From a virus, in IMG/VR virus record IMGVR_UViG_3300019487_000026, positions 25,344 through 89,343 of that record: a DNA stretch of 64,000 nucleotides. The stretch is one strand, 5' to 3'. Shown piece by piece: positions 3,424 through 40,743 of this stretch (position 1 is its first letter; each line of letters starts with the position of its first letter). The notes beneath the pieces are model-generated. The model made no database searches. It was given only the letters and a program-made list of their open reading frames with translations, and had not been told where the DNA came from. A program made the translations under genes and the position numbers.

Positions 3424-4399
3424 TGCGTGGGAGCCACAGGTCAATGGTGTTGTTCGAACACTAAAGACAACAGTTCAACATCTAATTGAAAAAGACTATG
3501 ATGTTTTTGTGATTCATCCTCAGATGTTCTGTAGTGTTCCGCTGCCGGGCTATAACGAAATTCGTTTATCACTCTTTCCTCGTCGAAGAGTCGGGAAACT
3601 GATCAAAGAATTTTGTCCGGATTATATCCACATTTCAACGGAAGGTCCTCTTGGTTGGGCTGCACGCAACTATTGCGTGAAGCATAAACTCGGCTTCTCA
3701 ACCGCATATCACACAATGTTTCCAGAGTACGTTAACATTCGGTGGGGCCTACCAGCATCATGGGGCTACAGTGTTGTTCGTAAATTTCACAAGCCGGCGG
3801 GGCGAGTGATGGTTGCCACACAAGCATTGAAAGAACAACTTCAGCTTCATAGTTTCAAGAACTCATTTGGGGAGTGGACTCGGGGCGTCGATCATGAAAT
3901 GTTCCACCCAAAACGTCGAACGGCGAGTGCTCGACCGTATGCTCTATATGTTGGTCGTGTGTCTCACGAAAAGAATCTCGAAGCATTTCTCTCGTTAGAT
4001 CTTCCCGATCTCGACAAGATTGTTATTGGCAAGGGACCACATCTTGAAGCGTTGCGAGCGCGGTTTCCCAAGACGTTCTTTATTGGTGAGCGAAAAGGTG
4101 AGGAGCTTGCAACGTACTATGCGTCAGCAGAAGTATTTGTGTTTCCAAGCAAAACAGACACGTTTGGTCTTGTTATGATTGAATCGCTTGCTTCCGGAAC
4201 ACCTGTAGCTGCTTATGATGTAGCTAATACGAGGGCAATTCTGTATAAAACAACTGGAGCATGCGAAGAGGATCTTGGCGTAGCGATTACCAATGCTCGA
4301 AAGCTATCCAGAAATATGTGTAGGCTTGCAGGAACTACGTTGACGTGGCAACGTGCAACGGGGCAGTTTTTGGCGAACTTGGTTCCTGCCTATCCGTAA
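3395..4399 (+). CDS. GT4 glycosyltransferase (Agt-like glycolipid synthase)
   Basis: TDAWEPQVNGVVRTL, VGRVS.EKN, FPSKTDTFGLVMIE motifs. Confidence 0.9.
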   Translation: MKQKILIITDAWEPQVNGVVRTLKTTVQHLIEKDYDVFVIHPQMFCSVPLPGYNEIRLSLFPRRRVGKLIKEFCPDYIHISTEGPLGWAARNYCVKHKLGFSTAYHTMFPEYVNIRWGLPASWGYSVVRKFHKPAGRVMVATQALKEQLQLHSFKNSFGEWTRGVDHEMFHPKRRTASARPYALYVGRVSHEKNLEAFLSLDLPDLDKIVIGKGPHLEALRARFPKTFFIGERKGEELATYYASAEVFVFPSKTDTFGLVMIESLASGTPVAAYDVANTRAILYKTTGACEEDLGVAITNARKLSRNMCRLAGTTLTWQRATGQFLANLVPAYP

Positions 4400-4808
4400 A
4401 CAAAATTCCGTCGAGATGGTCAATCTCGTGTTGAATACAAGCGGCATCAAGACCCTTGAGAAATGTTGTGTGTTCTTCGCCCGACGATTCAAAAAATTTC
4501 ACCCGAACCTCTTGAGCTCGTCTCACGTAGCAAAATTTACCAGGGGATGAAAGACAACCTTCGTAAGACAGTTGCTCACCAATCCGCTCGAGAATTTCAG
4601 GATTGACAAGAACGTATGGCCACTCAGCCGTTACGATAAGTCGAATTGATTTACCAACTTGTGGCGCTGCCAGTCCGATGCCATTATGCATGTACATTGT
4701 TGTGGCCATGTCAACTGCAAGATTCCATAGCTCGTCGTCGAACTCCGTCACAGGTTGTGCGACAAGACGGAGGATCGGATCAGTGTCAGGGAGCAAGGCT
4801 TCAATCAC
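4335..4808 (-). CDS. def: Peptide deformylase
   Basis: GIGLAAPQVG, EGCLS, QHEIDHLDG motifs. Confidence 0.95.
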   Translation of the reverse strand: MIEALLPDTDPILRLVAQPVTEFDDELWNLAVDMATTMYMHNGIGLAAPQVGKSIRLIVTAEWPYVLVNPEILERIGEQLSYEGCLSSPGKFCYVRRAQEVRVKFFESSGEEHTTFLKGLDAACIQHEIDHLDGILFTDRQEPSSPKTAPLHVATST

Positions 4809-5016
4809 GGGGAGCGATTTTGAAAGGTGGGAGTTGTGACATCAATTTGTTGAATTCTTCATGAACACCGAGCATCTGAGCCAATTCAACAACGATAAGG
4901 ACATTTTTCATATCGTCCTCGGCGTTCCCACAACGTTTGAAGTCACGAAGTAAAATCAAAGCAAGGGCGAGTTGTTCTCGCCCTGCTTCGTTCAGATCAT
5001 TTAACGTCTTTGCCAT
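4801..5016 (-). CDS. Hypothetical protein
   Basis: ORF coupled to def. Confidence 0.55.
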   Translation of the reverse strand: MAKTLNDLNEAGREQLALALILLRDFKRCGNAEDDMKNVLIVVELAQMLGVHEEFNKLMSQLPPFKIAPRD

Positions 5017-5020
5017 TGAT

Positions 5021-5605
5021 CTAGTGTGGCTTTGGCGGGTTGAGCAGACGTGAAATCGGCTTGACCTGCTTCAACAAGAATTCCATCTGATCCGCAAGAA
5101 TGTTGCGATTCATAAGAATCAAGTATTCAGCGCGGTTCGGCGCATACGGCACGTAGAGCAACTTCATGTGAGCTTCTTCCGGAGTACGGTTGTCCTTCAC
5201 CTTGTTGCAACCACCACAAGCAGTTACGACGTTTTCCCAACGGTCCTTACCACCACGCGAGCGCGGCGTCACGTGATCACGTGTCAAGTCTTCGTACTTG
5301 AACATGCCACCACAGTACGCACACATCTGATGGTCGCGACGGAAGAGGGCACGGTTGGTCAGCACTGGCGTGCGGTGAATGTGCGTATCAGCAACTTCAC
5401 CAGCAACAGCAATGATGGAGTTCAGGTCCATAAACGAACGGTCGCCCGTTAGTCGTGAACGACCACCGTAGACAGTGTATCCGTCGGTACCGACTGCCCA
5501 CGCAACGAGATCTTTCGCGTAGTAATACACGGCGTCTTCGTACGTAATCCAACGGCATGGATTTCCAGCCTTGTCGAGCTGGAGAATCAGCGGATGTTCA
5601 GCCAT
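5021..5605 (-). CDS. HNH endonuclease
   Basis: CAYCG, TRDHV.PRSRGG, NVVTAC..CN..K; ATG at 5605 behind GAGGAGG. Confidence 0.9.
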   Translation of the reverse strand: MAEHPLILQLDKAGNPCRWITYEDAVYYYAKDLVAWAVGTDGYTVYGGRSRLTGDRSFMDLNSIIAVAGEVADTHIHRTPVLTNRALFRRDHQMCAYCGGMFKYEDLTRDHVTPRSRGGKDRWENVVTACGGCNKVKDNRTPEEAHMKLLYVPYAPNRAEYLILMNRNILADQMEFLLKQVKPISRLLNPPKPH

Positions 5606-5679
5606 AATACACCTCCTCACTTGTTTCACAAGTATTTACGTGTGAATCTGTGGAACTGTACACAGAATATGTAATAAGG

Positions 5680-6021
5680 TCAACTAATTGTCTCTTCATT
5701 TTCTTTCTCCTGTAAAAGCTTGAATTTCCGAAGTGGTTTACGTTGTTGATCATACAAAGGCTGTGTGGCAATTGCCGTATTGCCTGTGTCATAATCTGGT
5801 TCGAAAAACAATTCAAATTCAATTCCATGTCGTCCAAGATATTGTGCAACATTCATTAGGTGGTGCTGATCCTTCACACCACACAGCACAATGTGCAATG
5901 GTTGTTCGGGTTTTTCGAATCGAAAGCTCGCTTCACTTGCTGCATGAGAAGCTTGCACGATTTGTTGTGGGTGCGACAAATCTTCTCGGACGAAAATATA
6001 CATATATGGAATCTAGCTCAT
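5680..6021 (-). CDS. Pth2-like peptidyl-tRNA hydrolase with an in-frame TAG at codon 3 (6013-6015)
   Basis: YIFVREDL...QIVQASHA...FFEPD...TAIAT.P pattern; GGAGG 7 nt before ATG-AGC-TAG-ATT-CCA-TAT-ATG; ATG overlaps the upstream TGA. Confidence 0.75.
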
Positions 6022-6398
6022 TTGTGTGCCTCCAAAACTGTAAGGATGTTTGTCCAATGTTCTTCGGTGAGTGTTTCACCATAGCGCATGCAGAACGGAA
6101 CCGCCCAGCCATACTTCTGGCCTGACCTTTCGTGATGCTCACGCTGTGTTTTGCGATGTTTGATGTTGAATTTGAGATTGTTTACTGCGTACTCAAACGT
6201 ACGCCATGGATTTTTATTGTAGTGGCTGTTGATTTTCTTTTCGTTCACGAATGGCGAAAACCCGCAACGTAAATCACGGCCTCGAATCAGATTGTAAAGA
6301 ACGTGATCTTGCGTCGTGGCGATCTTACCACGCGAAAGTTGGCGGAATGCTTCTTGGTACTGCTTAAATTGCTGTTTGTCAGGAATGACGTAATTCAT
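6018..6398 (-). CDS. Hypothetical protein cotranscribed with the Pth2-like gene
   Basis: ORF with AGGAG RBS. Confidence 0.75.
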   Translation of the reverse strand: MNYVIPDKQQFKQYQEAFRQLSRGKIATTQDHVLYNLIRGRDLRCGFSPFVNEKKINSHYNKNPWRTFEYAVNNLKFNIKHRKTQREHHERSGQKYGWAVPFCMRYGETLTEEHWTNILTVLEAHK

Positions 6399-6458
6399 TT
6401 TGTAAACTCCTAGTCAATGGTTAAAGGTAAAAACCGCGGAAAATGCCGACTAGGGCGT

Positions 6459-6545
6459 TTACGGAGGGATCCTAGGTCTACAAACCTAGGTGAACGGGCG
6501 AATCTACCCGCGTTTGACTGGCTGAATCATTGTTTCTTTAGTCAT
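6459..6545 (-). promoter_or_regulatory. Leader uORF MTKETMIQPVKRG*IRPFT*VCRPRIPP-TAA with two in-frame amber codons
   Basis: GAAAGGA RBS; TAG at 6504-6506 and 6486-6488; CCTAGTCGG just after the TAA is complementary to TTGACTAGG overlapping the next RBS. Confidence 0.7.
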
Positions 6546-6566
6546 GTGAAAATTCCTTTCGACGAA

Positions 6567-6595
6567 AGTATATATGTCTTGTCCCTCTTTGTCAA
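6567..6595 (-). promoter_or_regulatory. Sigma70-type promoter for the amber-gated operon
   Basis: TTGACA-17 nt-TATACT. Confidence 0.85.
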
Positions 6596-6615
6596 CGAGG
6601 CCGATAAATATCTAC

Positions 6616-6921
6616 ATGAAACTCAACGAGATTACCCGCCGCGCCTTCTTGGGCGCCATTCTAGGAACCGCTGCAACAGTCGCAATGGGGCAGCCTCATC
6701 GTCCGTATGACCCGAACAACGATCCTTGGGATAAGCTTCATCAAGGTATGACATACGGAGAAGTTCACGCGTTGCTTGGTGAGCCGACCCGCATAAAAAC
6801 ATGGGGTGAAATAACGAACTGGGAATACGGGATGGCAACAGTTCGATTCTGGAAAGGCAAACTGACCGATTGGTCTTATCCTGGTGCTAAAAAGAATCGG
6901 GGTCCGTCGCATCCGAAGTAA
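6616..6921 (+). CDS. Small SmpA/BamE-like protein with MKLNEI start and a TRRAFL Tat-like segment
   Basis: GMTYGEVHALLGEP motif; TAAATA upstream. Confidence 0.6.
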   Translation: MKLNEITRRAFLGAILGTAATVAMGQPHRPYDPNNDPWDKLHQGMTYGEVHALLGEPTRIKTWGEITNWEYGMATVRFWKGKLTDWSYPGAKKNRGPSHPK

Positions 6922-7126
6922 TCACGACCATGTCGTCGGTTCGAACATTGCGAACGAGTGCATGTGGTCTTGTGCCCTTAACAATGAAGCAGGTGCAATG
7001 ACACTGTGGTCGAAACATACATCCTAGAATTTCAAGTGCTTTATCAACTGCTTCGTCAATTCTTTTGAAGGGGTGGGCTTGGTAATTCTTTCCAGTTGAG
7101 CGTTCTACACGAAAAAAGAAATCCAT
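6887..7126 (-). CDS. Hypothetical protein
   Basis: ORF with AAGGAG RBS. Confidence 0.55.
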   Translation of the reverse strand: MDFFFRVERSTGKNYQAHPFKRIDEAVDKALEILGCMFRPQCHCTCFIVKGTRPHALVRNVRTDDMVVITSDATDPDSF

Positions 7127-7200
7127 TGGATGGTCTCCTTATTGTTTTGCAATAGTTTAAATTGTTAAAACAGGTAAAACAACTACAAGAAAGATTTTAT

Positions 7201-9846
7201 TTATGTTGCGTTAGGAATGACGGACTTAAGCGTGACATAACCCAACCAAACCCAGTTTTCAGCCGCAACACCTGTAACAGTAATTGCTAGAGCTTCATTG
7301 GTATTGTCGGCGGTAATATTTGCATCCGTGGTTGCATCAGACTCCGCCAGTACTGTTTTGGTTGGCGCGACGAGTAGTGTTGTATTATTTGCGTTGTCAC
7401 GGAAAAGCACCCCGTCCGTAAACTTGTAAACAGCGTAATCATTATTAGCAACAGTTTGGCCTTGACCAATAACCACGGCGTCAAAATGCCACACCCTACT
7501 TGCCGAGATTGTAAGTCGAGCGCTGTCAAAGGTGCGTAGTTCCGATGGAGTTGCACTAGTCGTACGTAGACGCATTTGAACAACAGCTTCGTGCGAAGCA
7601 AAATCACCACCAGCAGCGCCAGTCGTTAGCTGACGCTCCACAGCGCTTCCAAACTCGGCGATACGAGCTGTGGCAGCACCTGTGCCAGTAAAGAAGGTTC
7701 GTGGTTGTGCGTTCGTAACGGTATAACCCATTGTAATGGCTTGTGATTCATTACTAATCGCCAAGGTACCAATAGCAATCGAATCACCCGCAGTTACGCC
7801 AGTTTCAGCACTTGGGCCTAAAGCAACAGAAAATTGACCACTTGCATTTGCGGAATTACCGATGGCCAGTGGCGATTGAATCCCATCTGCTACAGCACCA
7901 GCACCTATCGCTATTGCGCTTGGTCCGTCAATAATGGTACTTACTCCGATCGCAATGGAATTGGCTTCGCCGGTACCAGTCCCATTGGCGGATTTTCCGA
8001 TTGCAATTATGTTTGTGCCCTGTGCGTTTGCACTACTACCTATAGTAATCGCTTCTATTCCATTTGAAGTAGCAGCAATACCAATTGCTATAGCTCCGAA
8101 TTGGTTTGAGCCTGAACCTGTACCAATTGTGATTCCAAAGGTTGCATTTGACTGAGAATTTGGACCAATTACAACGCTATTCGTTGCTGTGCCAAATTGT
8201 CCTGCACTTGCACCAGTACCCCACACGACAGCGTCATCGGCTTGATTGATCGCTCCCGAGCCGATTGCAACTGCATTATTGCCTGACGCATTAGGTGGTG
8301 TCGCCGCAACAGGATTAGCATCGTAGAGTGCCGGGGAAACTGAAGACCATGACGGTGCAACGCCTGGGCCACCCGATACGATTGCTTGACCAGCCGTTCC
8401 CGATGCACCCTCGACCAACCACTCACCTGTTGAAAGAATAGTAAGTCTTGGCAAACCTGTAGTGGACAACGCAATACTAGCTCCAACTTCTAGTGTATCA
8501 CCATTACCACCTGTGATTGTAACGATACCGTCAGTGCCACCACCAGAACCAGCTGTGATATTGATATCACCACCAGCCCCAGAAAGGCTTGTACCACCAT
8601 TAATGTTGACAATACCAGCAGCACCCGGTCCTGATGAATTACCACCCGCAAGAGTAGTTATTCCTGCTGTTCCAACAAACGTGGCACCGGATGTTATATT
8701 GATACTGCCCGCATTAGTTCCAACACCATTTGTACCACCCGTTATATTAACGTCGCCTGGACTACCACTACCACCCGCAGTCCCCGTTGCTATATTAACA
8801 TCACCGCTATTACCAGTACCAAAAGCACTTTGACCACTGGTTATGAAAACAGAACCCCCCTCGGCACTGTTTGGCGTACCAAAACCATCTCCTCCTGCGA
8901 GATACAGATCCCCACCAGTAAATCCAGAACCACTGGTAAGACCAGCTCGAAGGACAGCATAAGCTCCATTCATACCAAATGAATCTGCTGCCACAAGAAG
9001 AACACCCGTACCTGGAGATACTGCAAAGTTTCCAAACAACGAAAGGGCGCCATTTATTGGATCGAATGTAAAGTTTGGTGAACTATCAATACCAGCGCCC
9101 GTTCCGTATACGATTTGGTTTGCTGGTTCCGCTGGTGTTGGTGCGACGGTATTAATCCAATTCGTTCCATTGAATGACAAGAATTGGCCTGATGATGGTG
9201 CTGTGAGAACAACATCTTGAAGTTGATCCAAAGAAATACCACTCTCGCCTTCAACAAACAACACACTGAAGTGATCTACGTCTAGCGTTGCACCAACACC
9301 ACTTGTTGCACCTTTTGATACTTGTGCAATCGGAGCACCTGAGCCACCAGGAAGATTCGTTGAGATTGTATGAACGAGAATACCATTGTTATAGAACTGC
9401 CAGCTTGCACCTGTATTGACGGCACGGAGAGGTCCGGCGATGATAAAGGCTGGACCTGTTGTCTGGCCGCCTCCATTACTACAAAAAGGAACTGCAGTCG
9501 TTGTCGTGATCATCCAGCCAACGGCATCTATGTAGCTCGGTGAGCCGCTGTCAGCAATCATTATCAATCCATTATCACCTGGTCCTGCGGATGTGATTGC
9601 AGCTATCCACGAAAATTCGTCAACGCTTGTAAAATTGATTGGTGTTGGAAGTAAACCACCAGCAGAAATGCCTGTTGAATGACCACCCGTGATTCCAGTG
9701 GTAATTCGCACTGCACCAAACGAAGCATTCGCAACGTTCGTAACAGTTCCGCTTCCGACTGCATTGAAAAGTGTCCAACCTAGACCCGTTCCTGTTACGA
9801 AATCATCAAACAAACCACGAGTTGCTGTGTCAAATGGTACGGCCAC
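7201..9846 (-). CDS. Tail fibre / adhesin-like protein with Gly-rich repeats and YadA-head-like (AIAIG) repeats
   Basis: 881 aa; G(D/N)(V/I)NITxG repeats and about 14-residue AIAIG repeats; TAAATA upstream. Confidence 0.75.
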   Translation of the reverse strand: MAVPFDTATRGLFDDFVTGTGLGWTLFNAVGSGTVTNVANASFGAVRITTGITGGHSTGISAGGLLPTPINFTSVDEFSWIAAITSAGPGDNGLIMIADSGSPSYIDAVGWMITTTTAVPFCSNGGGQTTGPAFIIAGPLRAVNTGASWQFYNNGILVHTISTNLPGGSGAPIAQVSKGATSGVGATLDVDHFSVLFVEGESGISLDQLQDVVLTAPSSGQFLSFNGTNWINTVAPTPAEPANQIVYGTGAGIDSSPNFTFDPINGALSLFGNFAVSPGTGVLLVAADSFGMNGAYAVLRAGLTSGSGFTGGDLYLAGGDGFGTPNSAEGGSVFITSGQSAFGTGNSGDVNIATGTAGGSGSPGDVNITGGTNGVGTNAGSINITSGATFVGTAGITTLAGGNSSGPGAAGIVNINGGTSLSGAGGDINITAGSGGGTDGIVTITGGNGDTLEVGASIALSTTGLPRLTILSTGEWLVEGASGTAGQAIVSGGPGVAPSWSSVSPALYDANPVAATPPNASGNNAVAIGSGAINQADDAVVWGTGASAGQFGTATNSVVIGPNSQSNATFGITIGTGSGSNQFGAIAIGIAATSNGIEAITIGSSANAQGTNIIAIGKSANGTGTGEANSIAIGVSTIIDGPSAIAIGAGAVADGIQSPLAIGNSANASGQFSVALGPSAETGVTAGDSIAIGTLAISNESQAITMGYTVTNAQPRTFFTGTGAATARIAEFGSAVERQLTTGAAGGDFASHEAVVQMRLRTTSATPSELRTFDSARLTISASRVWHFDAVVIGQGQTVANNDYAVYKFTDGVLFRDNANNTTLLVAPTKTVLAESDATTDANITADNTNEALAITVTGVAAENWVWLGYVTLKSVIPNAT

Positions 9847-20156: not shown

Positions 20157-20230
20157 GCGCGATTAGCTCAATGGGAGAGCAATTGTCTCTAAAACTTTGG
20201 TTGAGGGTTCGAGTCCCTCATCGCGCACCA
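20157..20230 (+). tRNA. Amber suppressor tRNA (anticodon CTA)
   Basis: GCGCGAT/ATCGCGC acceptor stem, canonical D and T arms, loop CT-CTA-AA (20187-20193), CCA; anticodon stem has two U-U mismatches. Confidence 0.8.
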
Positions 20231-34425: not shown

Positions 34426-34499
34426 GGTGACTCTAGTGTAGTGGTAGCACAATTCGCTGTGAACGAGTTAGCCAGGGTTCAATTCCCGGAGCCACCCCA
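34426..34499 (+). tRNA. tRNA-His(GTG) with encoded G-1
   Basis: Cloverleaf, CCA. Confidence 0.9.
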
Positions 34500-34554
34500 C
34501 AATTGGGTTCAATATAAATACGCCTGTTCGGCGAACCGCCGCAAGGAGAATATA

Positions 34555-34971
34555 ATGAACACCAAAGATCAAGGAAGTCTCGGAGTGCTAGTTGTAATGC
34601 AGCAGGCAGTACAAAAAGGGTATATAGTTTGCGTTCCGTATGGTGATAACCAACGATACGATCTTCTGTTTGATAGAAACGGTCAATACCAACGTGTACA
34701 AGTCAAATATATAACACCCAAAGATGGAAGAATAAAACTAAAGCTCTTCACTGTAATGCATGACAAAAATAGAACCACTGAAAGAAAGTATCGTCGGGTA
34801 AAATATACAGCAAAAGATATTGACTTTTTTGCAATTGTGAACGCAAACACACATGAAGTGTATATGATCCCGTTGAGTGAAATAAATGGGCACTCAGAAA
34901 TGGTACTTCGAACAGACGAAGATTTGCGTAAAAGTAGCAAGGCTCGTCTAGCTAAGAATTATTTGATGTAA
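34555..34971 (+). CDS. PD-(D/E)XK endonuclease (free-standing homing type)
   Basis: PYGDNQRYDLL...RVQVK...Y..KDIDFF. Confidence 0.85.
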   Translation: MNTKDQGSLGVLVVMQQAVQKGYIVCVPYGDNQRYDLLFDRNGQYQRVQVKYITPKDGRIKLKLFTVMHDKNRTTERKYRRVKYTAKDIDFFAIVNANTHEVYMIPLSEINGHSEMVLRTDEDLRKSSKARLAKNYLM

Positions 34972-34977
34972 TAAAAT

Positions 34978-35068
34978 GGAAGGTAAACTGACAAGGCGTC
35001 AGGCTCGTTTGCTAAACGAAGAGAGCGACCTAACGTTGCTTGAGTTTCGATTACTCTGCCTTCCTCCA
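34978..35068 (+). tRNA. tRNA-Ser(GCT)
   Basis: Long variable arm, CCA. Confidence 0.85.
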
Positions 35069-35070
35069 AA

Positions 35071-35122
35071 TATCACCATAGTGAAATTGGAGATCATCTA
35101 ACCCTGCGAAGGTTCGTTTTGG
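35071..35122 (+). pseudogene. Truncated tRNA (5' half, GCG anticodon) upstream of the HNH gene
   Basis: TAGTGAAATTGGAGATCAT D arm and AACC-CTGCGAA-GGTT; no T arm. Confidence 0.55.
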
Positions 35123-35144
35123 TTTCGCAAGCATAAATAGTGAT

Positions 35145-35585
35145 ATGAAAACAAAATATTGTCCTCGTTGTGAAGAAGATAAAGCACTCGCTGAGTTCTC
35201 ACATAAGAACAAAGCGAAAAAGATATTAGCTGATCATTGTAAGGTGTGTGTTCGTTCTTATGCTAAGGAACACTACGAAGCGAACAAGAAACAGTATAAG
35301 GAACGAGCAGCTCGTAATCATCAGAAAACGATAGAGTGGTATCGTAAATTGAAAGAGTCGTTGCAGTGTTGCTGGTGCGGTGAAAAAACTAGTTGTACAT
35401 TAGATTTTCATCACGTGGATGCCAGCAAAGAGTTTGAGATTGGGACGGGCTTTTACAAAGTATCTAGGAAAACATTGATTGCAGAATTAGCAAAATGTGT
35501 GTGCTTGTGTGCGAATTGTCATCGCAAAGTTCATGCTGGATTGATTGATCTTCCAGCACACATAAAGCGCATTACTATAAAGTAA
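35145..35585 (+). CDS. HNH homing endonuclease
   Basis: CPRC, CKVC, LDFHH, LCANCHRKVH. Confidence 0.88.
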   Translation: MKTKYCPRCEEDKALAEFSHKNKAKKILADHCKVCVRSYAKEHYEANKKQYKERAARNHQKTIEWYRKLKESLQCCWCGEKTSCTLDFHHVDASKEFEIGTGFYKVSRKTLIAELAKCVCLCANCHRKVHAGLIDLPAHIKRITIK

Positions 35586-35586
35586 T

Positions 35587-35658
35587 ATCGCGTCCGACGG
35601 ATTCGGGCCTGTGTTTGCGAAACACGGTGAAACCGTTCGACTCGGTTACGCGGTGCCA
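35587..35658 (+). tRNA. Atypical tRNA-Arg(GCG)
   Basis: Acceptor stem, T arm and CCA present; D stem directly follows the acceptor strand. Confidence 0.7.
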
Positions 35659-35667
35659 AAATATAAC

Positions 35668-35741
35668 GGTGGCATGGTGTAATGGTAGCATAGGAGTCTG
35701 TCTAACTCTTGGCAGGGGTTCAATTCCCCTTGTCACCGCCA
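35668..35741 (+). tRNA. tRNA-Asp(GTC)
   Basis: Cloverleaf, CCA. Confidence 0.88.
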
Positions 35742-35742
35742 T

Positions 35743-35829
35743 GGATGACGACTGGCATTGGCGACCAGAGCAGTCTGTAAAACTGTATCCCTTCGGGGAG
35801 ACTAGGTTCGATTCCTAGGTCATCCACCA
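35743..35829 (+). tRNA. tRNA-Tyr(GTA)
   Basis: Long variable arm, CCA. Confidence 0.88.
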
Positions 35830-35859
35830 ATTTTATGGTATGCTGTTGTTTTACCTGTT

Positions 35860-36741
35860 TTGGAGAACAACGTGAACCGTCTTTTACTGCTTGGTTTTAT
35901 GATGTTTTTTGTCTCGAGCGTTTCAGGAAATCAACAATTTGAAACATTTGCTCGACACATGGAACGTGAACATGGTTTCGATAGAAGCGAGATTCATGTT
36001 CTGCTCAAGGGCACGGAACCACTTCAAGACGTGTTGCAAATGTTTCGGCGACCGTCAACTGACAAGTCGTTCGATGAATTTGAACGTTGGTTTATTAATG
36101 AACGTCGAATCAATAATGGTGTAATGTTTTTGATCGAACATCATGACCTGCTCGAACGAGCAGAAAGAGTATACGGAGTACCAGCCCCAATGATTGTCTC
36201 GTTTCTTGGTATCGAAACGAGCTATGGGACGAATATAGGCAAGCACAAGGTGGTTGAGTCACTGATTACGTTGGGCTTCTATGGACATCGTAGGCAAGAA
36301 TATTTCCGCTATGAATTGGAACATTTCCTGGTCACGGCTCGAGAGTTGAATTGGGACCGCAATCAGATCGTTGGATCGTTTGCAGGTGCAATTGGCATTC
36401 CGCAATTTATGCCAAGCAATATTCGTAAGCTTGCTGTCGATTTTGATGGAGATGGTCAGATTGATCTTATCGGAAACAAAGCCGATGCAATTGGTAGTGT
36501 TGGAAATTATCTTCAACAGGCGGGCTGGCGTCGAGGAGAACCAGTAGCAACAAGAATTAAAATCACTGATAAGCGTGGTGGATCATTTGTATTGCGGACC
36601 TTACCTGGTCCAGATCCAGTTCGTTTTCGGATTGAGCATAATTACAAAGTCATCAAACGGTACAATCCGAGCGATAATTATGCAATGACAATTTTCATCC
36701 TTGCTGAAAAAATCAAGGAACGTAGGAAAGGTGAAAACTAA
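35860..36741 (+). CDS. mltB: Lytic murein transglycosylase B-like protein
   Basis: GIETSYG, GSFAGAIG.PQFMPS, VDFDGDGQIDL, YN.S..YA. Confidence 0.9.
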   Translation: MENNVNRLLLLGFMMFFVSSVSGNQQFETFARHMEREHGFDRSEIHVLLKGTEPLQDVLQMFRRPSTDKSFDEFERWFINERRINNGVMFLIEHHDLLERAERVYGVPAPMIVSFLGIETSYGTNIGKHKVVESLITLGFYGHRRQEYFRYELEHFLVTARELNWDRNQIVGSFAGAIGIPQFMPSNIRKLAVDFDGDGQIDLIGNKADAIGSVGNYLQQAGWRRGEPVATRIKITDKRGGSFVLRTLPGPDPVRFRIEHNYKVIKRYNPSDNYAMTIFILAEKIKERRKGEN

Positions 36742-36746
36742 ACAAA

Positions 36747-36821
36747 GGTGGATTGGTGAAATGGCTATCACACGACTCTCATAAGGTTGAGTAAACGGAT
36801 CGTAACCGTTATCCACTACCA
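36747..36821 (+). tRNA. tRNA with CAT anticodon (Met or Ile2)
   Basis: Cloverleaf, CCA. Confidence 0.8.
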
Positions 36822-36844
36822 ACCACGCACGACCAAAAGTATAT

Positions 36845-36920
36845 GTACTGGCATGCAAACTGGCTAGCGAACAGGCTTTCAACCTGTAATTTGCGGGTTC
36901 AATTCCCGTCCAGTACTCCA
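36845..36920 (+). tRNA. tRNA-Glu(TTC)
   Basis: ACAGG-CTTTCAA-CCTGT, CCA. Confidence 0.8.
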
Positions 36921-36928
36921 AATTTTAT

Positions 36929-37006
36929 GCCCTGGTGGATAAATCGGCAAAATCGCCTCGTTTAGACCGAGGAGTTGTGAGGGTTCGAATCCCTCTCGGG
37001 GCACCA
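36929..37006 (+). tRNA. tRNA-Leu(TAG), short variable arm
   Basis: Cloverleaf, CCA. Confidence 0.85.
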
Positions 37007-37122
37007 AGTTGTTGCGTAGGAAACACAGTTACTTCATTTCTGCAAAAAATGAGTTAGGAGTTCGATTCTCCTCTTGAATCCTGGACGGAACTTATGTCAC
37101 TGTATCCGACTTCATCTCAGCT
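37007..37122 (+). ncRNA. Y-RNA-like ncRNA 2 containing an anticodon-like hairpin (GCA) and a T arm
   Basis: TTGCGTAGG...AGTTACTTCA at the 5' end; AGGAG-TTCGATT-CTCCT; CCGACTTCATCT-CAGCT at the 3' end. Confidence 0.65.
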
Positions 37123-37129
37123 TGATTAT

Positions 37130-37202
37130 GGAGAAGTAGCTTAAGAGAGAGCACGCCCACTCGGAGGGCGCCGCGATGGTTTAAACCCATCCTTCTCCAC
37201 CA
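37130..37202 (+). tRNA. Degenerate tRNA (loop ACTCGGA; probably TCG/Arg)
   Basis: Intact stems and CCA but non-canonical D, T and anticodon loops. Confidence 0.6.
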
Positions 37203-37406
37203 ATTTTTAGGAGCGTGTTATGAATGACCAAGAATTTAGAAACTAATTGAAGACGCATGCACAAAAGTGTCTGACATTGATCTTGCTGATATGCTCAAAG
37301 TCAGTAGACCTACAATTGATCGTTGGAGATGTGGTGTTACTTCACCGCACCCCTTCGCGCGGGCGAGTGTTGCAAGGATTGTAAACGCTCTGAAATAAAT
37401 ACCGGT

Positions 37407-37778
37407 ATGAAACTCCTAGAAGTCATTACCGACGACGAAATTGAACAATTCAAGCAAGCATTCCATATGTTTATGAACAGTAAACTACGGAATCAATGGC
37501 TTGGAGGTGATGTCATTCAGGTATACATGCGGAAGGGCATTCACGTTATTGGTCGTCAAGCATTCAAGACGCTTGATATCGCAAACATTCAGATCGACGA
37601 AAGTGAGCGGGGAAAAGGCGTTGGGATGAGACTGATTGACTGGTTGCATGAACAGAATCCCTTTGAAGTTACATACGTAGAGAGCTTGCAGAATCTACGT
37701 TTGTATGCAAGTCTTAAGCAACGTGGTTGGATTGATGTTCCAAATTCTCAACCACCTAGTGTGTATAAAACAAAGTAA
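37407..37778 (+). CDS. GNAT-like acetyltransferase (late)
   Basis: IANIQIDESERGKGVG; TAAATA upstream. Confidence 0.7.
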   Translation: MKLLEVITDDEIEQFKQAFHMFMNSKLRNQWLGGDVIQVYMRKGIHVIGRQAFKTLDIANIQIDESERGKGVGMRLIDWLHEQNPFEVTYVESLQNLRLYASLKQRGWIDVPNSQPPSVYKTK

Positions 37779-37782
37779 ATTT

Positions 37783-37857
37783 CTCCGTAGAGCGTGAGGG
37801 TTAGCGTACAACGTTTGGGGCGTTGTGGATCAGGTTCGAGTCCTGCTCACACAGCAG
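37783..37857 (+). pseudogene. Degenerate tRNA-Pro(TGG)
   Basis: CAACG-TTTGGGG-CGTTG and T arm present; acceptor stem does not pair. Confidence 0.6.
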
Positions 37858-37863
37858 AATAAC

Positions 37864-37937
37864 AGGTCGCTAGTGTAATGGCAGCATGACAACCTCCAAA
37901 GTTGTTGGTGGGAGTTCAAGTCTCTCGCGACCTGCCA
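37864..37937 (+). tRNA. tRNA-Trp(CCA)
   Basis: Cloverleaf, CCA. Confidence 0.9.
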
Positions 37938-37946
37938 AATTGTAAT

Positions 37947-38025
37947 GCAGCTCTGGCAGAGGTGGTCCTACATGCGTGTGCCTGAAGAGCACAAGATCTC
38001 AGTTCGATTCTGGGGGGCTGCACCA
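37947..38025 (+). tRNA. tRNA-Phe(GAA)
   Basis: Cloverleaf, CCA. Confidence 0.88.
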
Positions 38026-38170
38026 AAGTTTCGAAGTGAATTGTTTCAAGCCGTCTGAAGGGGTTGCAACTCCGACAGATGTATAATGGATTAGCTCACG
38101 ACGCGTCCGGGCTTGTTATGAAACGGCGCTTGATCAGCGTTTCTGGCCAAGAACGAGCGAAAAGATTATT

Positions 38171-38254
38171 GGGCAAGTGGGGGAATTGGCAGACCCACCA
38201 CTTTGAGAGGGTGGCGCGTAAAGCGTGCAGGTTCGAATCCTGTTTTGCCCACCA
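38171..38254 (+). tRNA. tRNA-Leu(GAG)
   Basis: Cloverleaf, CCA. Confidence 0.9.
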
Positions 38255-38257
38255 AAT

Positions 38258-38353
38258 GGAAGATTGGGTGAGTGGCTTAAACCACCTATCTCGAAAATAG
38301 GAGGGTCGGGGACTAGCTCGGCTCCGTAGGTTCGAATCCTACATCTTCCGCCA
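38258..38353 (+). tRNA. tRNA-Ser(CGA)
   Basis: Cloverleaf, CCA. Confidence 0.9.
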
Positions 38354-38355
38354 AT

Positions 38356-38433
38356 GCGTTGCTGATGGGAATTGGCAGACCTCATACGCTCAAACCGTAT
38401 GGTTTCTCGGTTCGACTCCGAGGCAACGCACCA
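38356..38433 (+). tRNA. tRNA-Leu(CAA), short variable arm
   Basis: Cloverleaf, CCA. Confidence 0.85.
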
Positions 38434-38436
38434 TTC

Positions 38437-38510
38437 GCGGGTATAGTATAATGGTATTATGCGACATTGCCAGTGTTGAGACGTGGGTTCGATTCCCACT
38501 ACCTGCTCCA
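38437..38510 (+). tRNA. tRNA-Gly(GCC), no insert
   Basis: Cloverleaf, CCA. Confidence 0.9.
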
Positions 38511-38568
38511 GTTGTTGACCCTTTGTAAATAGGTGAAAATGTTGCCATACGACAAAGGAGAGATTCAG

Positions 38569-39843
38569 ATGAAAAAGTTTGGTGCACTTGCAATCGACCT
38601 CGAATGGAAAGATGATCCTCGTTGGAATGGCGTAAAACGACCGTATACTGGCGAAGACGTGTACAAATTACAAGGGTCGATGCCCATCCAGTACACACTA
38701 GCAACTCACGGTGCATATAAACTTTGGAATATGTTGCATGAACGTCCATTCGTCCATGCACTTGGTGCTGTCACGGGCATGCAAGCTTTGCAACAAGTTA
38801 AAGCAGGCTTGCCAGCAATTTATTTGTCGGGTTGGCAAGTTGCAGCTGATGCAAACGACAGCTTGAATATGTATCCTGATCAATCATTGTACGCTACGAC
38901 AAGTGTGCCAACGGTTGTTGAACGTATCAACAACACATTGAGTCGTGCGGACCAAATCCAGCACATGGAAGGGCGAGACGAGATTGATTACTTCGCCCCA
39001 ATCGTTGCTGATGCTGAGGCTGGCTTTGGAGGAGTGCTAAACGCACACGAGCTGATGAAAGCAATGATTCGTGCAGGTGCTGCGGGTGTCCATTTTGAAG
39101 ATCAACTTGCCTCTGTCAAGAAATGTGGGCACATGGGTGGTAAGGTTCTTGTGTCGACCCGTGAAGCTGTTGAAAAACTGGTTGCAGCTCGTCTCGCAGC
39201 CGACATTATGGGTGTGCCTACAGTATTGTTTGCACGAACCGATGCAGAGGCGGCGAACTTGATTACAAACGATGTCGACGAAAATGACAAACCATTCTTG
39301 ACAGGTGAACGAACTGTTGAAGGTTTCTATCGTGTGCGAAACGGTCTCGAACAAGCTATCTCGCGCGGTCTTGCTTATGCACCGTATGCAGATCTTGTGT
39401 GGTGTGAGACGGGAAAACCTGATCTCGAGTTCGCGAAGAAATTTGCGGAAGCGGTGCTGCGTGAAAATCCAACTAAGATGTTGGCGTACAATTGTTCGCC
39501 ATCGTTTAACTGGAAAAAGAATCTTGACGACGCAACGATTGCAAAATTCCAGCACGAGCTTGGAGCGATGGGATACAAGTTCCAATTCATTACGCTGGCA
39601 GGATTCCATGCGTTGAACTACTCGATGTTTGACCTTGCACATGGATATGCTCGACACAATATGTCAGCGTTTGTCGAGCTTCAAGAGAAAGAATTTAAGG
39701 CTGCTGCGGTTGGCTTCACTGCTGTGAAGCATCAGCGCGAAGTTGGGACGAGTTATTTTGATGAGATCACGCAGGTGATCCAGTCGCGCATGTCCTCAAC
39801 AACTGCGTTGAAAGGTTCGACCGAAGAAGAGCAGTTTCACTAA
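38569..39843 (+). CDS. aceA: Isocitrate lyase
   Basis: [40 protein letters not shown]. Confidence 0.97.
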
Positions 39844-39848
39844 ACAAA

Positions 39849-39925
39849 CGCAGGGAAGGTGCTGGATTTCCTCGACTGGTTTCATACGCCAGTTCACGTC
39901 GGTTCAATTCCGACCCCTGCAACCA
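39849..39925 (+). tRNA. tRNA-Met(CAT), C1:A72 mismatch (initiator-like)
   Basis: Cloverleaf with atypical D arm, CCA. Confidence 0.75.
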
Positions 39926-39928
39926 TTT

Positions 39929-40007
39929 CAGAGTGTAGGAAAGCCTGGCTTAATCCGTCGCGTCCGGAGCGCGAAGACCGTTGGTTCGAATCCAACCACT
40001 CTGACCA
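39929..40007 (+). tRNA. tRNA-Pro(CGG)
   Basis: Cloverleaf, CCA; C at position 33. Confidence 0.85.
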
Positions 40008-40126
40008 ACAGCTGCGTAGGTATGGAGTTCTTCATTCCAAACTGCGAACGGGAGTTCGATTCTCTCTTTATCGTCTAGTGGTAAGACAGCAGTCAACAAA
40101 GATGCCAAACCGTTTTAAACTCTGTT
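40008..40126 (+). ncRNA. Y-RNA-like ncRNA 3 containing a circularly permuted tRNA-Gly(TCC) core without an acceptor stem
   Basis: Order TTCCAA-ACTGC, T arm, D arm, GCAGTC, inside termini shared with the other two RNAs. Confidence 0.7.
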
Positions 40127-40143
40127 GATTAATATTTAACAAT

Positions 40144-40219
40144 TGCCTCGTGGTGTAATGGTTAGCATGCTTGCCTTTGAAGCAAGTCGGTGTTGGTTCG
40201 AATCCAGCCGGGGTAGCCA
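40144..40219 (+). tRNA. tRNA-Gln(TTG)
   Basis: Cloverleaf, CCA. Confidence 0.88.
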
Positions 40220-40231
40220 TAGGAGATTAGT

Positions 40232-40402
40232 ATGTCCAAGAAAGATGAAAAGAAGAAGCAAAGGCTTCAAGAGAGACTGACCCAACTTGAACAAGAACTG
40301 ACAACTGCACTGACAAAGAAGTCATCTGCAACGACGGAAATCAATGTTCCTGAGTATACGCGGAGGATTCAAGAACTGCGTGAGCAACTAGCGAAAATGT
40401 AA
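40232..40402 (+). CDS. Small coiled-coil protein
   Basis: AGGAG RBS; MSKKDEKKKQRLQERL... Confidence 0.6.
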   Translation: MSKKDEKKKQRLQERLTQLEQELTTALTKKSSATTEINVPEYTRRIQELREQLAKM

Positions 40403-40437
40403 TTCGTCAGGTATAATGTTGTCATTAGGAGAAATCA

Positions 40438-40665
40438 ATGCCGAATCCAACATTGAAAGACATGGTGATTGACAATAAAAAGGTTCACTTCATTTTCTAT
40501 CGTGAGAAGGAACTGTGGTACAAGACGGAAACTGGCTTTGAGTTTCCCGTTCCTATCGAAGACGTTGGGAACGCTATCTTTCTTGCGGAAGATAAGGCTC
40601 TGCTGTTCATGCGTTATATTCGCAAGCAGTTGCAAACAATTGAAAAAGCAAAGCAAGAGCAATAA
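40438..40665 (+). CDS. Small phage protein
   Basis: AGGAG RBS; FEFPVPIEDVGNA.FLAEDKA. Confidence 0.7.
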   Translation: MPNPTLKDMVIDNKKVHFIFYREKELWYKTETGFEFPVPIEDVGNAIFLAEDKALLFMRYIRKQLQTIEKAKQEQ

Positions 40666-40669
40666 CAAT

Positions 40670-40743
40670 TGGGATGTGGTGTAATGGTAGCATTGCTGGT
40701 TCTGACCCAGTAGGCCAAGGCTCGATTCCTTGCATCCCTGCCA
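40670..40743 (+). tRNA. tRNA-Gln(CTG)
   Basis: Cloverleaf, CCA. Confidence 0.88.

What the first reader, a model, noticed from the sequence alone, without database searches (positions are those of the whole stretch)
5680..6595. Amber-readthrough-gated operon encoding a Pth2-like peptidyl-tRNA hydrolase
Seen, on the minus strand: a TTGACA-17-TATACT promoter and GAAAGGA RBS precede a 28-codon leader, MTKETMIQPVKRG-TAG-IRPFT-TAG-VCRPRIPP-TAA (6545-6459). Four nt after its TAA is CCTAGTCGG, complementary to TTGACTAGG, which overlaps the AGGAG RBS of the 126-aa gene. The Pth2-like gene has its only good RBS (GGAGG, 7 nt spacer) at the ATG overlapping the upstream TGA and reads ATG-AGC-TAG-ATT-CCA-TAT-ATG, so it has an amber at codon 3. 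That makes three in-frame TAGs at regulatory positions, two followed by ATT. Known: RAPP/RGPP-type motifs arrest ribosomes, and RF2 autoregulates through inefficient termination. Inference: only ribosomes that read through UAG reach RIPP-stop, pause there and unmask the RBS, and readthrough is needed again to make the hydrolase. This would be a genetic sensor of UAG suppression or RF1 failure that switches on a ribosome-rescue function.
Basis: partly seen in the sequence, partly recalled or inferred. Interest (0 to 1): 0.92.

Follow-up and report, generated by a model that had tools for sequence, protein, structure and literature searches.

The report
Suppressor-tRNA-gated phage hydrolase operon
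A large phage that uses the normal genetic code seems to translate a small two-gene operon, ending in a peptidyl-tRNA-hydrolase-like gene, only when its own UAG-reading tRNA overrides three built-in UAG stops, which would give such "orphan" phage suppressor tRNAs a conserved target.

Summary
Comparison shows they are conserved.

- **Early UAG in the hydrolase gene.** 30 of 86 distinct homologous loci, cultured jumbo phages included, have ATG, 1-5 codons, an in-frame stop, then the conserved core. The stop is TAG in 30 of 30.
- **Leader.** The 126-aa gene (here "X") pairs with the hydrolase gene in 51 of 86 loci. In 32 of 39 testable loci X is preceded by a short leader with an in-frame TAG followed by Pro-Pro. 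None appears on the reverse strand; shuffles average 0.56.
- **RBS masking.** The Pro-Pro codons, or bases just after them, pair with X's ribosome-binding site.
- **Matching tRNA.** The window encodes tRNA(CUA) 14 kb away. In 19 of 19 loci with a suppressor tRNA in the flanks, its anticodon matches the leader's stop, including one TAA/UUA swap.
- **No recoding.** About 25% of this phage's ORFs end in TAG.

Best reading: a leader-peptide translational attenuator whose input is amber suppression, with a second gate at codon 3 of the hydrolase gene. Nothing was tested experimentally. The enzyme's substrate and X's role are unknown.

Five literature searches found no description. Earlier agents of this scan reported the same design on other genomes.

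The parts
6567..6595 (-). sigma-70-like promoter TTGACA-17-TATACT of the operon
   Evidence: Sequence. Pattern scan gives 11 of 12 matches, the best site in 4000-7400. Consensus match only; no transcript data.
6459..6560 (-). Leader. SD GAAAGGA 6560-6554; ATG 6545; TAG 6506-6504 (followed by ATT); TAG 6488-6486 (followed by GTT); Pro-Pro codons CCT CCG 6467-6462; TAA 6461-6459.
   Evidence: Sequence. Homologous leaders of the form ATG, 0-14 codons, TAG ... PP stand upstream of X in 32 of 39 loci, against 0 of 39 on the reverse strand. The closest relatives L173 and L175 also have two TAGs and ...FT*VRARDPP. In 11 whole phage records (2.4 Mb) the strict pattern occurs at X in five and once elsewhere.
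6446..6454 (-). anti-SD segment CCTAGTCGG, 4 nt after the leader's TAA
   Evidence: Paired with 6417-6409 in the minimum-energy fold.
6407..6417 (-). TTGACTAGG plus AGGAG: the sequestered ribosome-binding site of gene X
   Evidence: SD bases are about 0.2 unpaired in free RNA and with a ribosome at either TAG, and 0.40 with a ribosome at Pro-Pro/TAA.
6018..6398 (-). Gene X, 126 aa, unknown function (phrog_22448). Conserved partner of the Pth2-like gene. Its TGA overlaps the next ATG (ATGA).
   Evidence: phrog_22448 E 1.1e-8. A profile finds X in 51 of 86 loci and 7 of 11 whole records, mostly 8-41 nt upstream of the Pth2-like gene. No Pfam, NCBIfam or PADLOC hit. 90 clusters in the protein collection, all named 'hypothetical' or unnamed.
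5680..6033 (-). Pth2-like gene. SD GGAGG 6033-6029; ATG 6021; AGC; in-frame TAG 6015-6013; ATT CCA TAT; ATG 6003 ... TGA 5682-5680. 113 codons if the TAG is read, 107 aa from ATG 6003.
   Evidence: PF01981 E 8.2e-5, 23.2 bits against cut-off 23, matching from profile position 3. Family alignment shows a conserved P-Y before the core, matching the I-P-Y codons after the TAG. Early in-frame TAG in 30 of 86 loci.
20157..20230 (+). tRNA with anticodon CUA (amber suppressor) and encoded CCA end. The presumed reader of the three TAGs.
   Evidence: ARAGORN. Rfam tRNA 61.9 bits against gathering score 29, with two non-standard pairs in the anticodon stem. It is the only suppressor tRNA in the 89-kb record.

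Best explanation
The stretch is a translational switch operated by the phage's own amber-suppressor tRNA.

Proposed sequence of events:
1. A promoter drives an mRNA that starts with a short leader ORF.
2. By the standard code the leader ends at UAG after 13 codons. The ribosome-binding site of the next gene, X, stays locked in a hairpin.
3. If charged tRNA(CUA), encoded 14 kb away, out-competes RF1 at both leader UAGs, the ribosome runs on to the Pro-Pro-UAA end.
4. That end lies directly on or next to the anti-SD. While the ribosome sits or terminates there, X's SD is freed and X is translated.
5. Ribosomes finishing X at the overlapping ATGA start the Pth2-like gene. They must read a third UAG at codon 3 to make the full protein with its conserved I-P-Y N-terminus.

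Output therefore rises steeply with suppression efficiency. Only this operon is gated this way.

Shown: the anatomy, its conservation, its specificity for TAG, the anticodon/stop match, and the predicted RNA geometry.

Inferred:
- actual readthrough;
- a pause at Pro-Pro;
- coupling of X to the hydrolase gene;
- by analogy with other autoregulatory sensors, that X and the hydrolase act back on the suppressor tRNA or on the products of readthrough.
For: 1. **Early TAG in the Pth2-like gene.**
- 110 loci were tabled, 24 exact duplicates dropped, 86 classified.
- 30 have ATG, 1-5 codons, a stop, 3-10 codons without ATG, then the core. The stop is TAG in 30/30.
- The next base is A in 22 and G in 8. 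ATT follows in 16.
- TAG ends only 4-25% of ORFs in these phages.
- Only 2 of 30 have Met at core position 1.
- A relative has Gln where L175 has TAG: MTQENPY against MT*ENPY.
- The trait needs at least 7 changes on the tree of 77 rows and persists across deep branches.
- It is present in cultured phages GAP32, CBB, Serratia BF, Yersinia fHe-Yen9-04, ME3, RsoM2USA and Arash. There the gene is unannotated or truncated.

2. **Leader.**
- Present in 32/39 loci; 22/39 end exactly in PP-stop.
- Controls are near zero.
- Genome-wide, the strict pattern occurs at X in five of 11 records, plus one stray hit elsewhere.

3. **RNA geometry.**
- X's SD pairs with the Pro-Pro codons in 22 of 32 folded segments, and with the 3-10 nt after them in 9.
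- A ribosome modelled at Pro-Pro raises SD accessibility by at least 0.2 over a ribosome at UAG in 24 of 30 segments. The reverse holds in 1.

4. **tRNA.**
- tRNA(CUA) is present in 10 of 11 whole records.
- It is the commonest tRNA near the gene, in 23 of 86 loci.
- In 19/19 loci with a suppressor tRNA in the flanks the anticodon matches the leader's gating stop: 18 CUA/TAG and 1 UUA/TAA.

5. **No global recoding.**
Against: - There is no experimental or RNA evidence for readthrough, stalling or expression.
- In this window the constrained fold frees the SD only partly, from 0.20 to 0.40. The first CCUAGG copy can replace the masked anti-SD.
- R-I-P-P is not a tested arrest motif. CCUCC conservation is explained equally well by its anti-SD role.
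- ATG 6003 could allow a suppression-independent, slightly shorter product in this phage.
- About 25% of this phage's ORFs end in TAG, so strong suppression would extend many of its own proteins. High readthrough is therefore unlikely.
- The tRNA's anticodon stem has two U-U mismatches, and its amino-acid identity could not be determined.
- 7 of 39 loci deviate from the TAG...PP leader pattern. Two carry TAA or TGA in place of TAG, one ends D-P-stop, two stop 11 nt short of CCTCC, and two are unclear.
- Loci are not all independent: near-identical relatives remain after de-duplication.
- PTH2 membership is borderline, so the enzymatic output is uncertain.
Confidence: 0.7

Rival explanations
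1. Same gate, no arrest. The TAG-gated leader works purely by ribosome occupancy or termination on the anti-SD, or in some relatives by termination-reinitiation at an overlapping ATGA. Pro-Pro is only the reading of a CCUCC anti-SD and does not stall the ribosome.
For: - CCNCC pairs with X's SD in 22 of 32 segments.
- In G001/L173, L175, L009 and L023 the leader frame runs past Pro-Pro and ends at a TGA overlapping X's ATG.
- Residues before PP vary: NG, HD, KD, LR, RG, RI, RA, VG.
- In L204 and L239 the leader stops 11 nt before CCTCC, in another frame.
Against: - CCNCC is read as Pro-Pro in all 32 leaders found. This count is biased, because the search required PP.
- A stop follows directly in 22 of 39.
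- Arg lies 1-2 residues before the first Pro in the leaders ending RAPP, RGPP, RIPP, RDPP and LRPP. This resembles the RAPP-like motifs of PMC10987492 (abstract read).
- From recall, not a call: C-terminal Pro-Pro is known to slow termination.
Confidence: 0.35
2. The TAGs are ordinary stops. The leader is a 13-codon uORF or untranslated structured RNA. X is controlled by the hairpin through some other factor. The hydrolase starts at ATG 6003 by reinitiation after the 2-codon mini-ORF. The tRNA(CUA) is unrelated.
For: - By table 11 nothing needs readthrough in this window. ATG 6003 gives a 107-aa protein that matches Pfam from profile position 3.
- TAG is a normal terminator for about 25% of this phage's ORFs.
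- No RNA or protein data exist.
Against: - 28 of 30 TAG-bearing homologues have no Met after the TAG.
- The stop is always TAG and always in frame.
- The codons after it encode the conserved P-Y.
- Leaders keep TAG followed by an open frame to Pro-Pro in 32/39 loci.
- The TAA leader is paired with a UUA tRNA.
Confidence: 0.07
3. The phage switches the infected cell to a TAG-sense code (code-15-like), and these TAGs are just three of many recoded codons.
For: - A tRNA(CUA) is present.
- Recoded phages with suppressor tRNAs are known (Borges et al. preprint 10.1101/2021.08.26.457843, passages read).
Against: - Coding coverage under table 11 is 0.88-0.91, and 27 of 107 ORFs of 80 aa or more (33 of 120 at 60 aa or more) end in TAG.
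- Making TAG sense does not raise coverage.
- Long ORF pairs split by TAG number 28 of 262, in line with stop usage.
- No other gene with SD, ATG and an early TAG recurs in 11 records.
Confidence: 0.04
4. The CTAG-rich palindromes (CCTAGG twice, CCTAGT, ACTAGG) are operator sites for a DNA-binding regulator, perhaps X itself. The in-frame TAGs are a by-product.
For: - This is the densest CTAG cluster in the 89-kb record, with about 0.016 such windows expected genome-wide.
- The X profile gives weak, non-significant hits to winged-helix RepA N-terminal domains, E 0.05-0.3.
Against: - Upstream regions of X in six other phage records have 0-2 CTAG in 300 nt, yet keep the TAG...Pro-Pro leader.
- So the CTAG cluster is specific to this window and is not the conserved feature.
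Confidence: 0.05

Closest known systems
Leader-peptide translational attenuation that unmasks a downstream SD (ermC/cat leaders; SecM-secA, MifM-yidC2). Recalled from general knowledge.
   Same: A short uORF with its own SD, a stem that hides the next gene's SD, and a ribosome positioned at the end of the leader that opens it.
   Different: The input here is whether a stop codon inside the leader is read through by a dedicated tRNA. It is not an antibiotic, an amino acid or secretion force. The regulated genes are a Pth2-like protein and an unknown partner.
RAPP/RGPP-type arrest peptides (ApdA, ApdP and relatives): PMC10951233 and PMC10987492, abstracts read
   Same: The leaders end in x-x-Pro-Pro. 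Some relatives have exactly RAPP (L009) or RGPP (L032, L228, L235). All lie upstream of a regulated gene.
   Different: The window has R-I-P-P. Many relatives have NGPP, HDPP, KDPP or LRPP. Arrest is untested. The known peptides regulate Sec/YidC components and contain no internal stop codon.
Classical attenuation (trp/his leaders), which senses charged tRNA through leader translation. Recalled.
   Same: A leader peptide reports the availability of one charged tRNA species through how far the ribosome gets.
   Different: The codon here is a stop codon and the tRNA a suppressor. The output is translational rather than transcription termination.
RF2 (prfB) autoregulation through an early in-frame UGA. 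Recalled.
   Same: An early in-frame stop codon in a translation-factor-type gene makes its synthesis depend on termination efficiency at that codon.
   Different: prfB uses a +1 frameshift and senses RF2. Here the frame is kept, so readthrough is needed, and a cognate tRNA is encoded in the same genome.
Stop-codon-recoded phages with their own suppressor tRNAs (TAG read as Gln; Borges et al. preprint 10.1101/2021.08.26.457843, passages read)
   Same: A phage-encoded tRNA(CUA), with in-frame TAG proposed to regulate translation.
   Different: Those phages recode many late genes and avoid TAG as a stop. Here the code is standard, TAG ends about a quarter of ORFs, and one small operon is gated. 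That preprint does not contain the words 'hydrolase' or 'peptidyl'.
Peptidyl-tRNA hydrolase 2 (Pfam PF01981; PDB 2zv3, 1q7s)
   Same: The N-terminal V-R-x-D-L...Q...H-A and the central E-P-D...T-A-I-A-T motifs align to PTH2. The Pfam hit is just above the cut-off.
   Different: The relationship is very distant: profile against PDB gives E 0.013-0.21. The protein is about 100 aa, and no fold or activity could be tested.
Phage lambda bar minigenes (SD-AUG-one codon-stop, toxic when Pth is limiting). Recalled.
   Same: SD-ATG-AGC-TAG is formally a two-codon minigene placed at a peptidyl-tRNA-hydrolase-type gene.
   Different: Here the stop is in frame with, and followed by, the conserved coding sequence, and it is always TAG. 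No link to drop-off was tested.

Membership tests
Peptidyl-tRNA hydrolase 2 (PF01981) | Pfam model match at or above the gathering score | tested here: met
   23.2 bits against cut-off 23, E 8.2e-5, residues 1-85 on profile 3-102 of 115. This is marginal. 8 of the 77 hits listed (the window's own protein among them) carry a precomputed PF01981 hit.
Peptidyl-tRNA hydrolase 2 (PF01981) | Sequence-profile similarity to solved PTH2 structures | tested here: inconclusive
   Family profile against PDB: 24bt_A 'peptidyl-tRNA hydrolase' E 0.013, 2zv3_A E 0.18, 1q7s_A (Bit1) E 0.21.
Peptidyl-tRNA hydrolase 2 (PF01981) | PTH2 alpha/beta fold and hydrolysis of peptidyl-tRNA | not testable with these tools
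There is no assay.
Leader-peptide translational attenuator (SD-unmasking type) | Short uORF with its own SD upstream of the regulated gene | tested here: met
   GAAAGGA, 8 nt, then ATG 6545. With an SD required, 33 of 39 related loci have such a leader.
Leader-peptide translational attenuator (SD-unmasking type) | Stem that sequesters the downstream SD, with its 5' arm inside the footprint of a ribosome at the leader's end | tested here: met
   In the window, 6454-6446 pairs with 6417-6409. In the family, the SD pairs with the Pro-Pro codons in 22/32 segments or with the next 3-10 nt in 9/32. Accessibility medians are 0.20 free, 0.18 at UAG and 0.53 at Pro-Pro. These are predictions only.
Leader-peptide translational attenuator (SD-unmasking type) | Signal-dependent ribosome position shown by toeprint or reporter | not testable with these tools
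   Needs an experiment.
RAPP/RGPP arrest peptides | R-A/G-P-P motif at the arrest site | tested here: not met
   The window has R-I-P-P. Relatives vary, and only L009 (RAPP) and L032/L228/L235 (RGPP) fit.
RAPP/RGPP arrest peptides | [quoted passage not shown] | not testable with these tools
   Needs toeprinting or cryo-EM.
Stop-codon-recoded (code-15-like) phage | Low coding density under table 11 and many genes with in-frame TAG | tested here: not met
   Coverage 0.91 under table 11 and 0.91 with TAG as sense. No other recurrent in-frame TAG gene.
Stop-codon-recoded (code-15-like) phage | TAG avoided as a terminator | tested here: not met
   33 of 120 ORFs and 27 of 107 ORFs end in TAG.
Stop-codon-recoded (code-15-like) phage | Phage-encoded tRNA(CUA) | tested here: met
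   20157-20230, Rfam 61.9 bits.

The most novel reading that the evidence does not exclude
The tRNA(CUA), the UAG leader, X and the Pth2-like protein may form a closed-loop controller of stop-codon readthrough. The leader and the codon-3 UAG would measure how well the suppressor beats RF1. The hydrolase, with X, would then remove the aminoacyl or peptidyl group from the suppressor tRNA or clear its drop-off products. A standard-code phage could in this way hold UAG readthrough at a set level, making this a natural homeostat of genetic-code ambiguity. The two linkage modes would be interchangeable ways of wiring the same loop: the tRNA gene placed next to the operon, or extra UAG gates when it lies far away. 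The supporting count is 4/30 against 19/56 loci with the tRNA in the flanks, p 0.045.
Probability: 0.3. Interest if true: 0.95.

Novelty: new variant of a known kind. Interest (0 to 1): 0.85.

Why it matters
Many large phages that use the standard code carry amber-suppressor tRNAs with no known target. The XacN1 authors read through all 18 TAG stops in silico and found none (PMC5852040, passages read).

This operon gives those tRNAs a conserved, specific target. It would be a natural gene switch operated by a tRNA that reads a stop codon, a design so far built only by synthetic biologists.

It is directly testable in cultured phages such as ME3, GAP32, CBB, RsoM2USA, Serratia BF and Arash, and in E. 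coli reporters. It also shows that current annotations miss or truncate the gene. It could further provide orthogonal tRNA/leader parts for engineered control of translation.

Tried and rejected
**Searches that gave nothing useful**
- Rfam, permissive E-value threshold, on 5500-7200: only a chance miRNA hit and no tRNA-like remnant in the 5' region. The idea that the leader is a decayed tRNA was dropped.
- DNA similarity to cultured phages: only short HNH matches.
- Single-sequence scan for X in viral contigs: nothing. X relatives were later found by synteny and a profile.
- X function: no usable feature hit in the protein atlas and structure rows all below TM 0.5; PDB profile hits not significant; no NCBIfam or PADLOC hit.
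- Genes beside the tRNA(CUA): no aminoacyl-tRNA synthetase or other translation family in 9 neighbouring ORFs.

**Ideas tested and dropped**
- Other genes with an early TAG, in this genome and in 10 related records: none recurrent.
- Global recoding: rejected.
- Amino-acid identity of the tRNA(CUA). Alignment of 28 distinct sequences and comparison with each phage's other tRNAs gave no clear parent. The single Gln/TAG comparison (P0003 against L175) is only a hint.
- CTAG palindromes as a conserved operator: not conserved in relatives.

**No data or no access**
- Sequencing runs: no RNA holder listed. Only two DNA contig sets were available, which may be the source sample.
XacN1's Supplementary Table S3, the tRNA list cited in the passage read, could bear on its tRNA(CUA) copies.
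- Literature searches found no description of an amber-gated Pth2-like gene or a UAG leader. So did passages read in PMC5852040, PMC6102473, the Borges preprint and PMC13037316. Subscription journals are not covered.
Full report
**What is there**

- Promoter TTGACA-17-TATACT at 6595-6567 is the best promoter-like site in 4000-7400.
- An SD and ATG 6545 follow. The frame reads MTKETMIQPVKRG-TAG-IRPFT-TAG-VCRPRIPP-TAA.
- CCTAGTCGG (6454-6446) pairs with TTGACTAGG (6417-6409) over the AGGAG of the 126-aa gene at 6398-6018.
- GGAGG-7 nt-ATG 6021 overlaps that gene's TGA and is followed by AGC-TAG-ATT-CCA-TAT-ATG 6003.
- The 5' region folds unusually well: z -3.52, with 0 of 200 shuffles as stable.
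- Two public assemblies of cave-metagenome runs hold 5600-6700 without a difference. They may be the source sample, and they are contigs, not reads.

**Context**

The window is part of a large phage.
- The record held is 89 kb. The same proteins are on record on a 355-kb contig.
- It has 28 tRNA genes. One, at 20157-20230, has anticodon CUA. It scores 61.9 bits on the Rfam tRNA model, with two non-standard pairs in the anticodon stem.
- The phage is not recoded. Simple ORF tiling covers 0.91 of the genome under table 11 and gains nothing with TAG as sense. 33 of 120 ORFs end in TAG, or 27 of 107 at 80 aa or more.
- No other gene has an SD, an ATG and an early TAG before a long frame.

**The hydrolase gene**

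- The 107-aa product from ATG 6003 matches Pfam PTH2 just above the cut-off, 23.2 against 23 bits.
- A family profile weakly matches solved PTH2 chains, E 0.013-0.21.
- In an alignment of 32 of 77 homologues, many carry extra N-terminal residues with a conserved P-Y directly before the core. One example is MKSHIPYMYLFVRED, which matches the I-P-Y encoded between the window's TAG and ATG 6003.

Homologous loci came from three sources, plus the window itself:
- viral contigs: 29 found, 27 used;
- metagenome contigs: 70;
- cultured phages: 12 of 39 matching records opened.

That makes 110 loci, or 86 after exact duplicates were dropped. Results:
- 30 have ATG, 1-5 codons, an in-frame stop, 3-10 codons with no ATG, then the core.
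- The stop is TAG in all 30. The following base is A (22) or G (8), and ATT follows in 16.
- The residue at the window's Met-6003 position is Met in only 2.
- The other 56 start normally. Their nearest upstream in-frame stops are TAA 26, TGA 18, TAG 6 and none 6.
- The TAG class includes Cronobacter GAP32, Pectobacterium CBB, Serratia BF, Yersinia fHe-Yen9-04, Acinetobacter ME3, Ralstonia RsoM2USA, Salmonella Arash and the 595-kb LR756511.
- GenBank has no CDS there for BF, fHe-Yen9-04 and RsoM2USA. It has a truncated one for GAP32_397, CBB_406 and Arash gp84c.
- On a quick ML tree of 77 rows the trait needs at least 7 changes. Two are forced by well-supported branches, and 500 shuffles average 22.5. 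The trait is kept across long branches.

**The partner gene and the leader**

- In loci without the early TAG, a tRNA(CUA) typically sits a few hundred bases upstream on the same strand.
- The ORF between it and the hydrolase gene is homologous to the window's 126-aa protein, here called X. Both hit phrog_22448.
- An X profile finds it in 7 of 11 whole records and 51 of 86 loci: 43 upstream of the hydrolase gene, mostly 8-41 nt before its core, and 8 (weak hits) downstream.
- 39 loci have X directly upstream with at least 160 nt before it. In 32 of them there is a leader of the form ATG, 0-14 codons, TAG ... Pro-Pro. In 22 a stop follows Pro-Pro directly.
- Examples: M*IHINGPP, MM*ILNNGPP, MR*ICLRPP, ML*MPNKDPP, MTKVTHT*INSIHDPP, MRNKQL*QVRGPP.
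- The closest relatives have two TAGs, like the window: MKRVKKA*VAGFT*VRARDPP...
- Controls: reverse complement 0 of 39; 200 shuffles mean 0.56 (maximum 4) and 0.03 for the strict form; TAA or TGA in the role of TAG 2 and 1.
- In 2.4 Mb of 11 phage records the strict TAG pattern occurs at X in five, with one stray hit.

The 7 exceptions are informative:
- L179 has TAA in place of TAG, and its locus carries a tRNA with anticodon UUA.
- L194 has TGA, on a 2-kb contig with no tRNA.
- L181 ends in D-P-stop.
- L204 and L239 stop 11 nt before CCTCC.
- Two are unclear.

With an SD required, 33 of 39 loci have a leader. All 19 loci with a suppressor tRNA in the flanks have one, and the anticodon matches the gating stop in 19 of 19.

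**RNA geometry**

- In 32 folded segments X's SD pairs with the Pro-Pro codons themselves (CCNCC) in 22, and with the 3-10 nt after them in 9, the window among these.
- Forcing a 28-nt ribosome footprint open gave these median unpaired probabilities of X's SD over 30 segments: 0.20 free, 0.18 with the UAG in the A site, 0.53 with the ribosome at Pro-Pro.
- 24 of 30 gain at least 0.2 relative to the UAG state. One goes the other way.
- In the window the gain is modest, 0.20 to 0.40. The first CCUAGG copy can re-pair with the SD once its own partner is covered.

**Reading**

- The simplest account of all this is a translational attenuator whose input is amber suppression by the phage's own tRNA.
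- In this phage and some others a second UAG gate sits at the start of the hydrolase gene.
- Still inferred: the stall at R-I-P-P, the "RF1 failure" input and the "ribosome rescue" output.
- Because CCUCC is both Pro-Pro and an anti-SD, comparative data cannot tell arrest from plain occupancy.
- X's function is unknown.
- The tRNA gene lies in the flanks less often when the hydrolase gene carries its own TAG: 4/30 against 19/56, p 0.045, with unequal flank lengths. Physical linkage and extra gating may be alternative ways to couple the parts.
- I consider a feedback role on the suppressor tRNA plausible but untested.

**Novelty**

- Five full-text searches found no description. Neither did passages read in the XacN1 paper, the Atu_ph07 paper, the Borges preprint and a 2026 jumbo-phage survey.
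- The XacN1 authors explicitly found no target for their tRNA(CUA).
- Earlier agents of this scan reported the same amber-gated Pth2-like gene and the same UAG/Pro-Pro leader on other genomes. I read those notes after reaching the same points from the data: for the gene and 85-90 for the leader.
- Those notes are not independent evidence, and the scores here rest on my own tests.

Noticed in passing
window 4335-5629, minus strand: Directly downstream of the operon, on the same strand, lie an HNH endonuclease (5629-5021; PF14279 E 4e-15), a 71-aa ORF and a peptide deformylase (4808-4335; PF01327 E 1.6e-40). The deformylase is another translation-related gene. A terminator-like hairpin lies at 4984-4964.
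   Followed up: partly
window 34426-46889: There is an array of 27 further tRNA genes on the + strand. The tRNA(CUA) at 20157 stands alone, 14 kb from both the array and the operon.
   Followed up: no
whole 89-kb record: The trinucleotide TAG (654 seen, 1570 expected) and CTAG (115 seen, 343 expected) are strongly depleted. Even so, about a quarter of ORFs end in TAG.
   Followed up: partly
L179 (same contig as L010), about 1755-2642: The leader has TAA instead of TAG (MIKVTDN-TAA-VPSLHDPP-TAG). The neighbouring tRNA has anticodon UUA, a natural swap of lock and key.
   Followed up: yes
L194, upstream of X at 383: The leader has TGA as the internal stop (MKWY-TGA-MLNNGPPV-TAA). The 2-kb contig holds no tRNA, so a UCA partner could not be checked.
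   Followed up: partly
L163, L167, L168 (Xanthomonas phages XacN1 and Xoo-sp13, Stenotrophomonas phage CM1): The Pth2-like domain is the C-terminal part of a protein of about 280 aa (XacN1 ORF364, Xoosp13_327). It has no early TAG. XacN1 still carries two tRNA(CUA) according to PMC5852040.
   Followed up: no
L171 (Salmonella phage Arash), 2798-2872: The GenBank record calls this tRNA 'tRNA-Phe', whereas ARAGORN reads anticodon CTA. It lies about 1 kb downstream of the TAG-gated Pth2-like gene.
   Followed up: partly
L021, L022, L026, L202, L210, L214, L218, L219: In the clade with the early TAG but no upstream X, weak X-like ORFs (E 3e-3 to 4e-8) lie 350-1800 nt downstream of the Pth2-like gene.
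   Followed up: no
L237, 1082: A TAG sits 4 codons before the core, but there is no ATG in the 30 in-frame codons upstream. This may be a fusion to, or readthrough extension of, an upstream ORF.
   Followed up: no
G004 (record of L021), 54520-57002: This 84-kb fragment (22% complete) has two tRNA(UCA) and no tRNA(CUA), although its Pth2-like gene carries an early TAG.
   Followed up: no
window 6574-6921, plus strand: The divergent neighbour looks like a small exported protein with a weak BamE-domain match (E 4e-4, below the cut-off) and a twin-arginine-like N-terminus. Its likely start is the internal MKLNEITRRAFLG.
   Followed up: no
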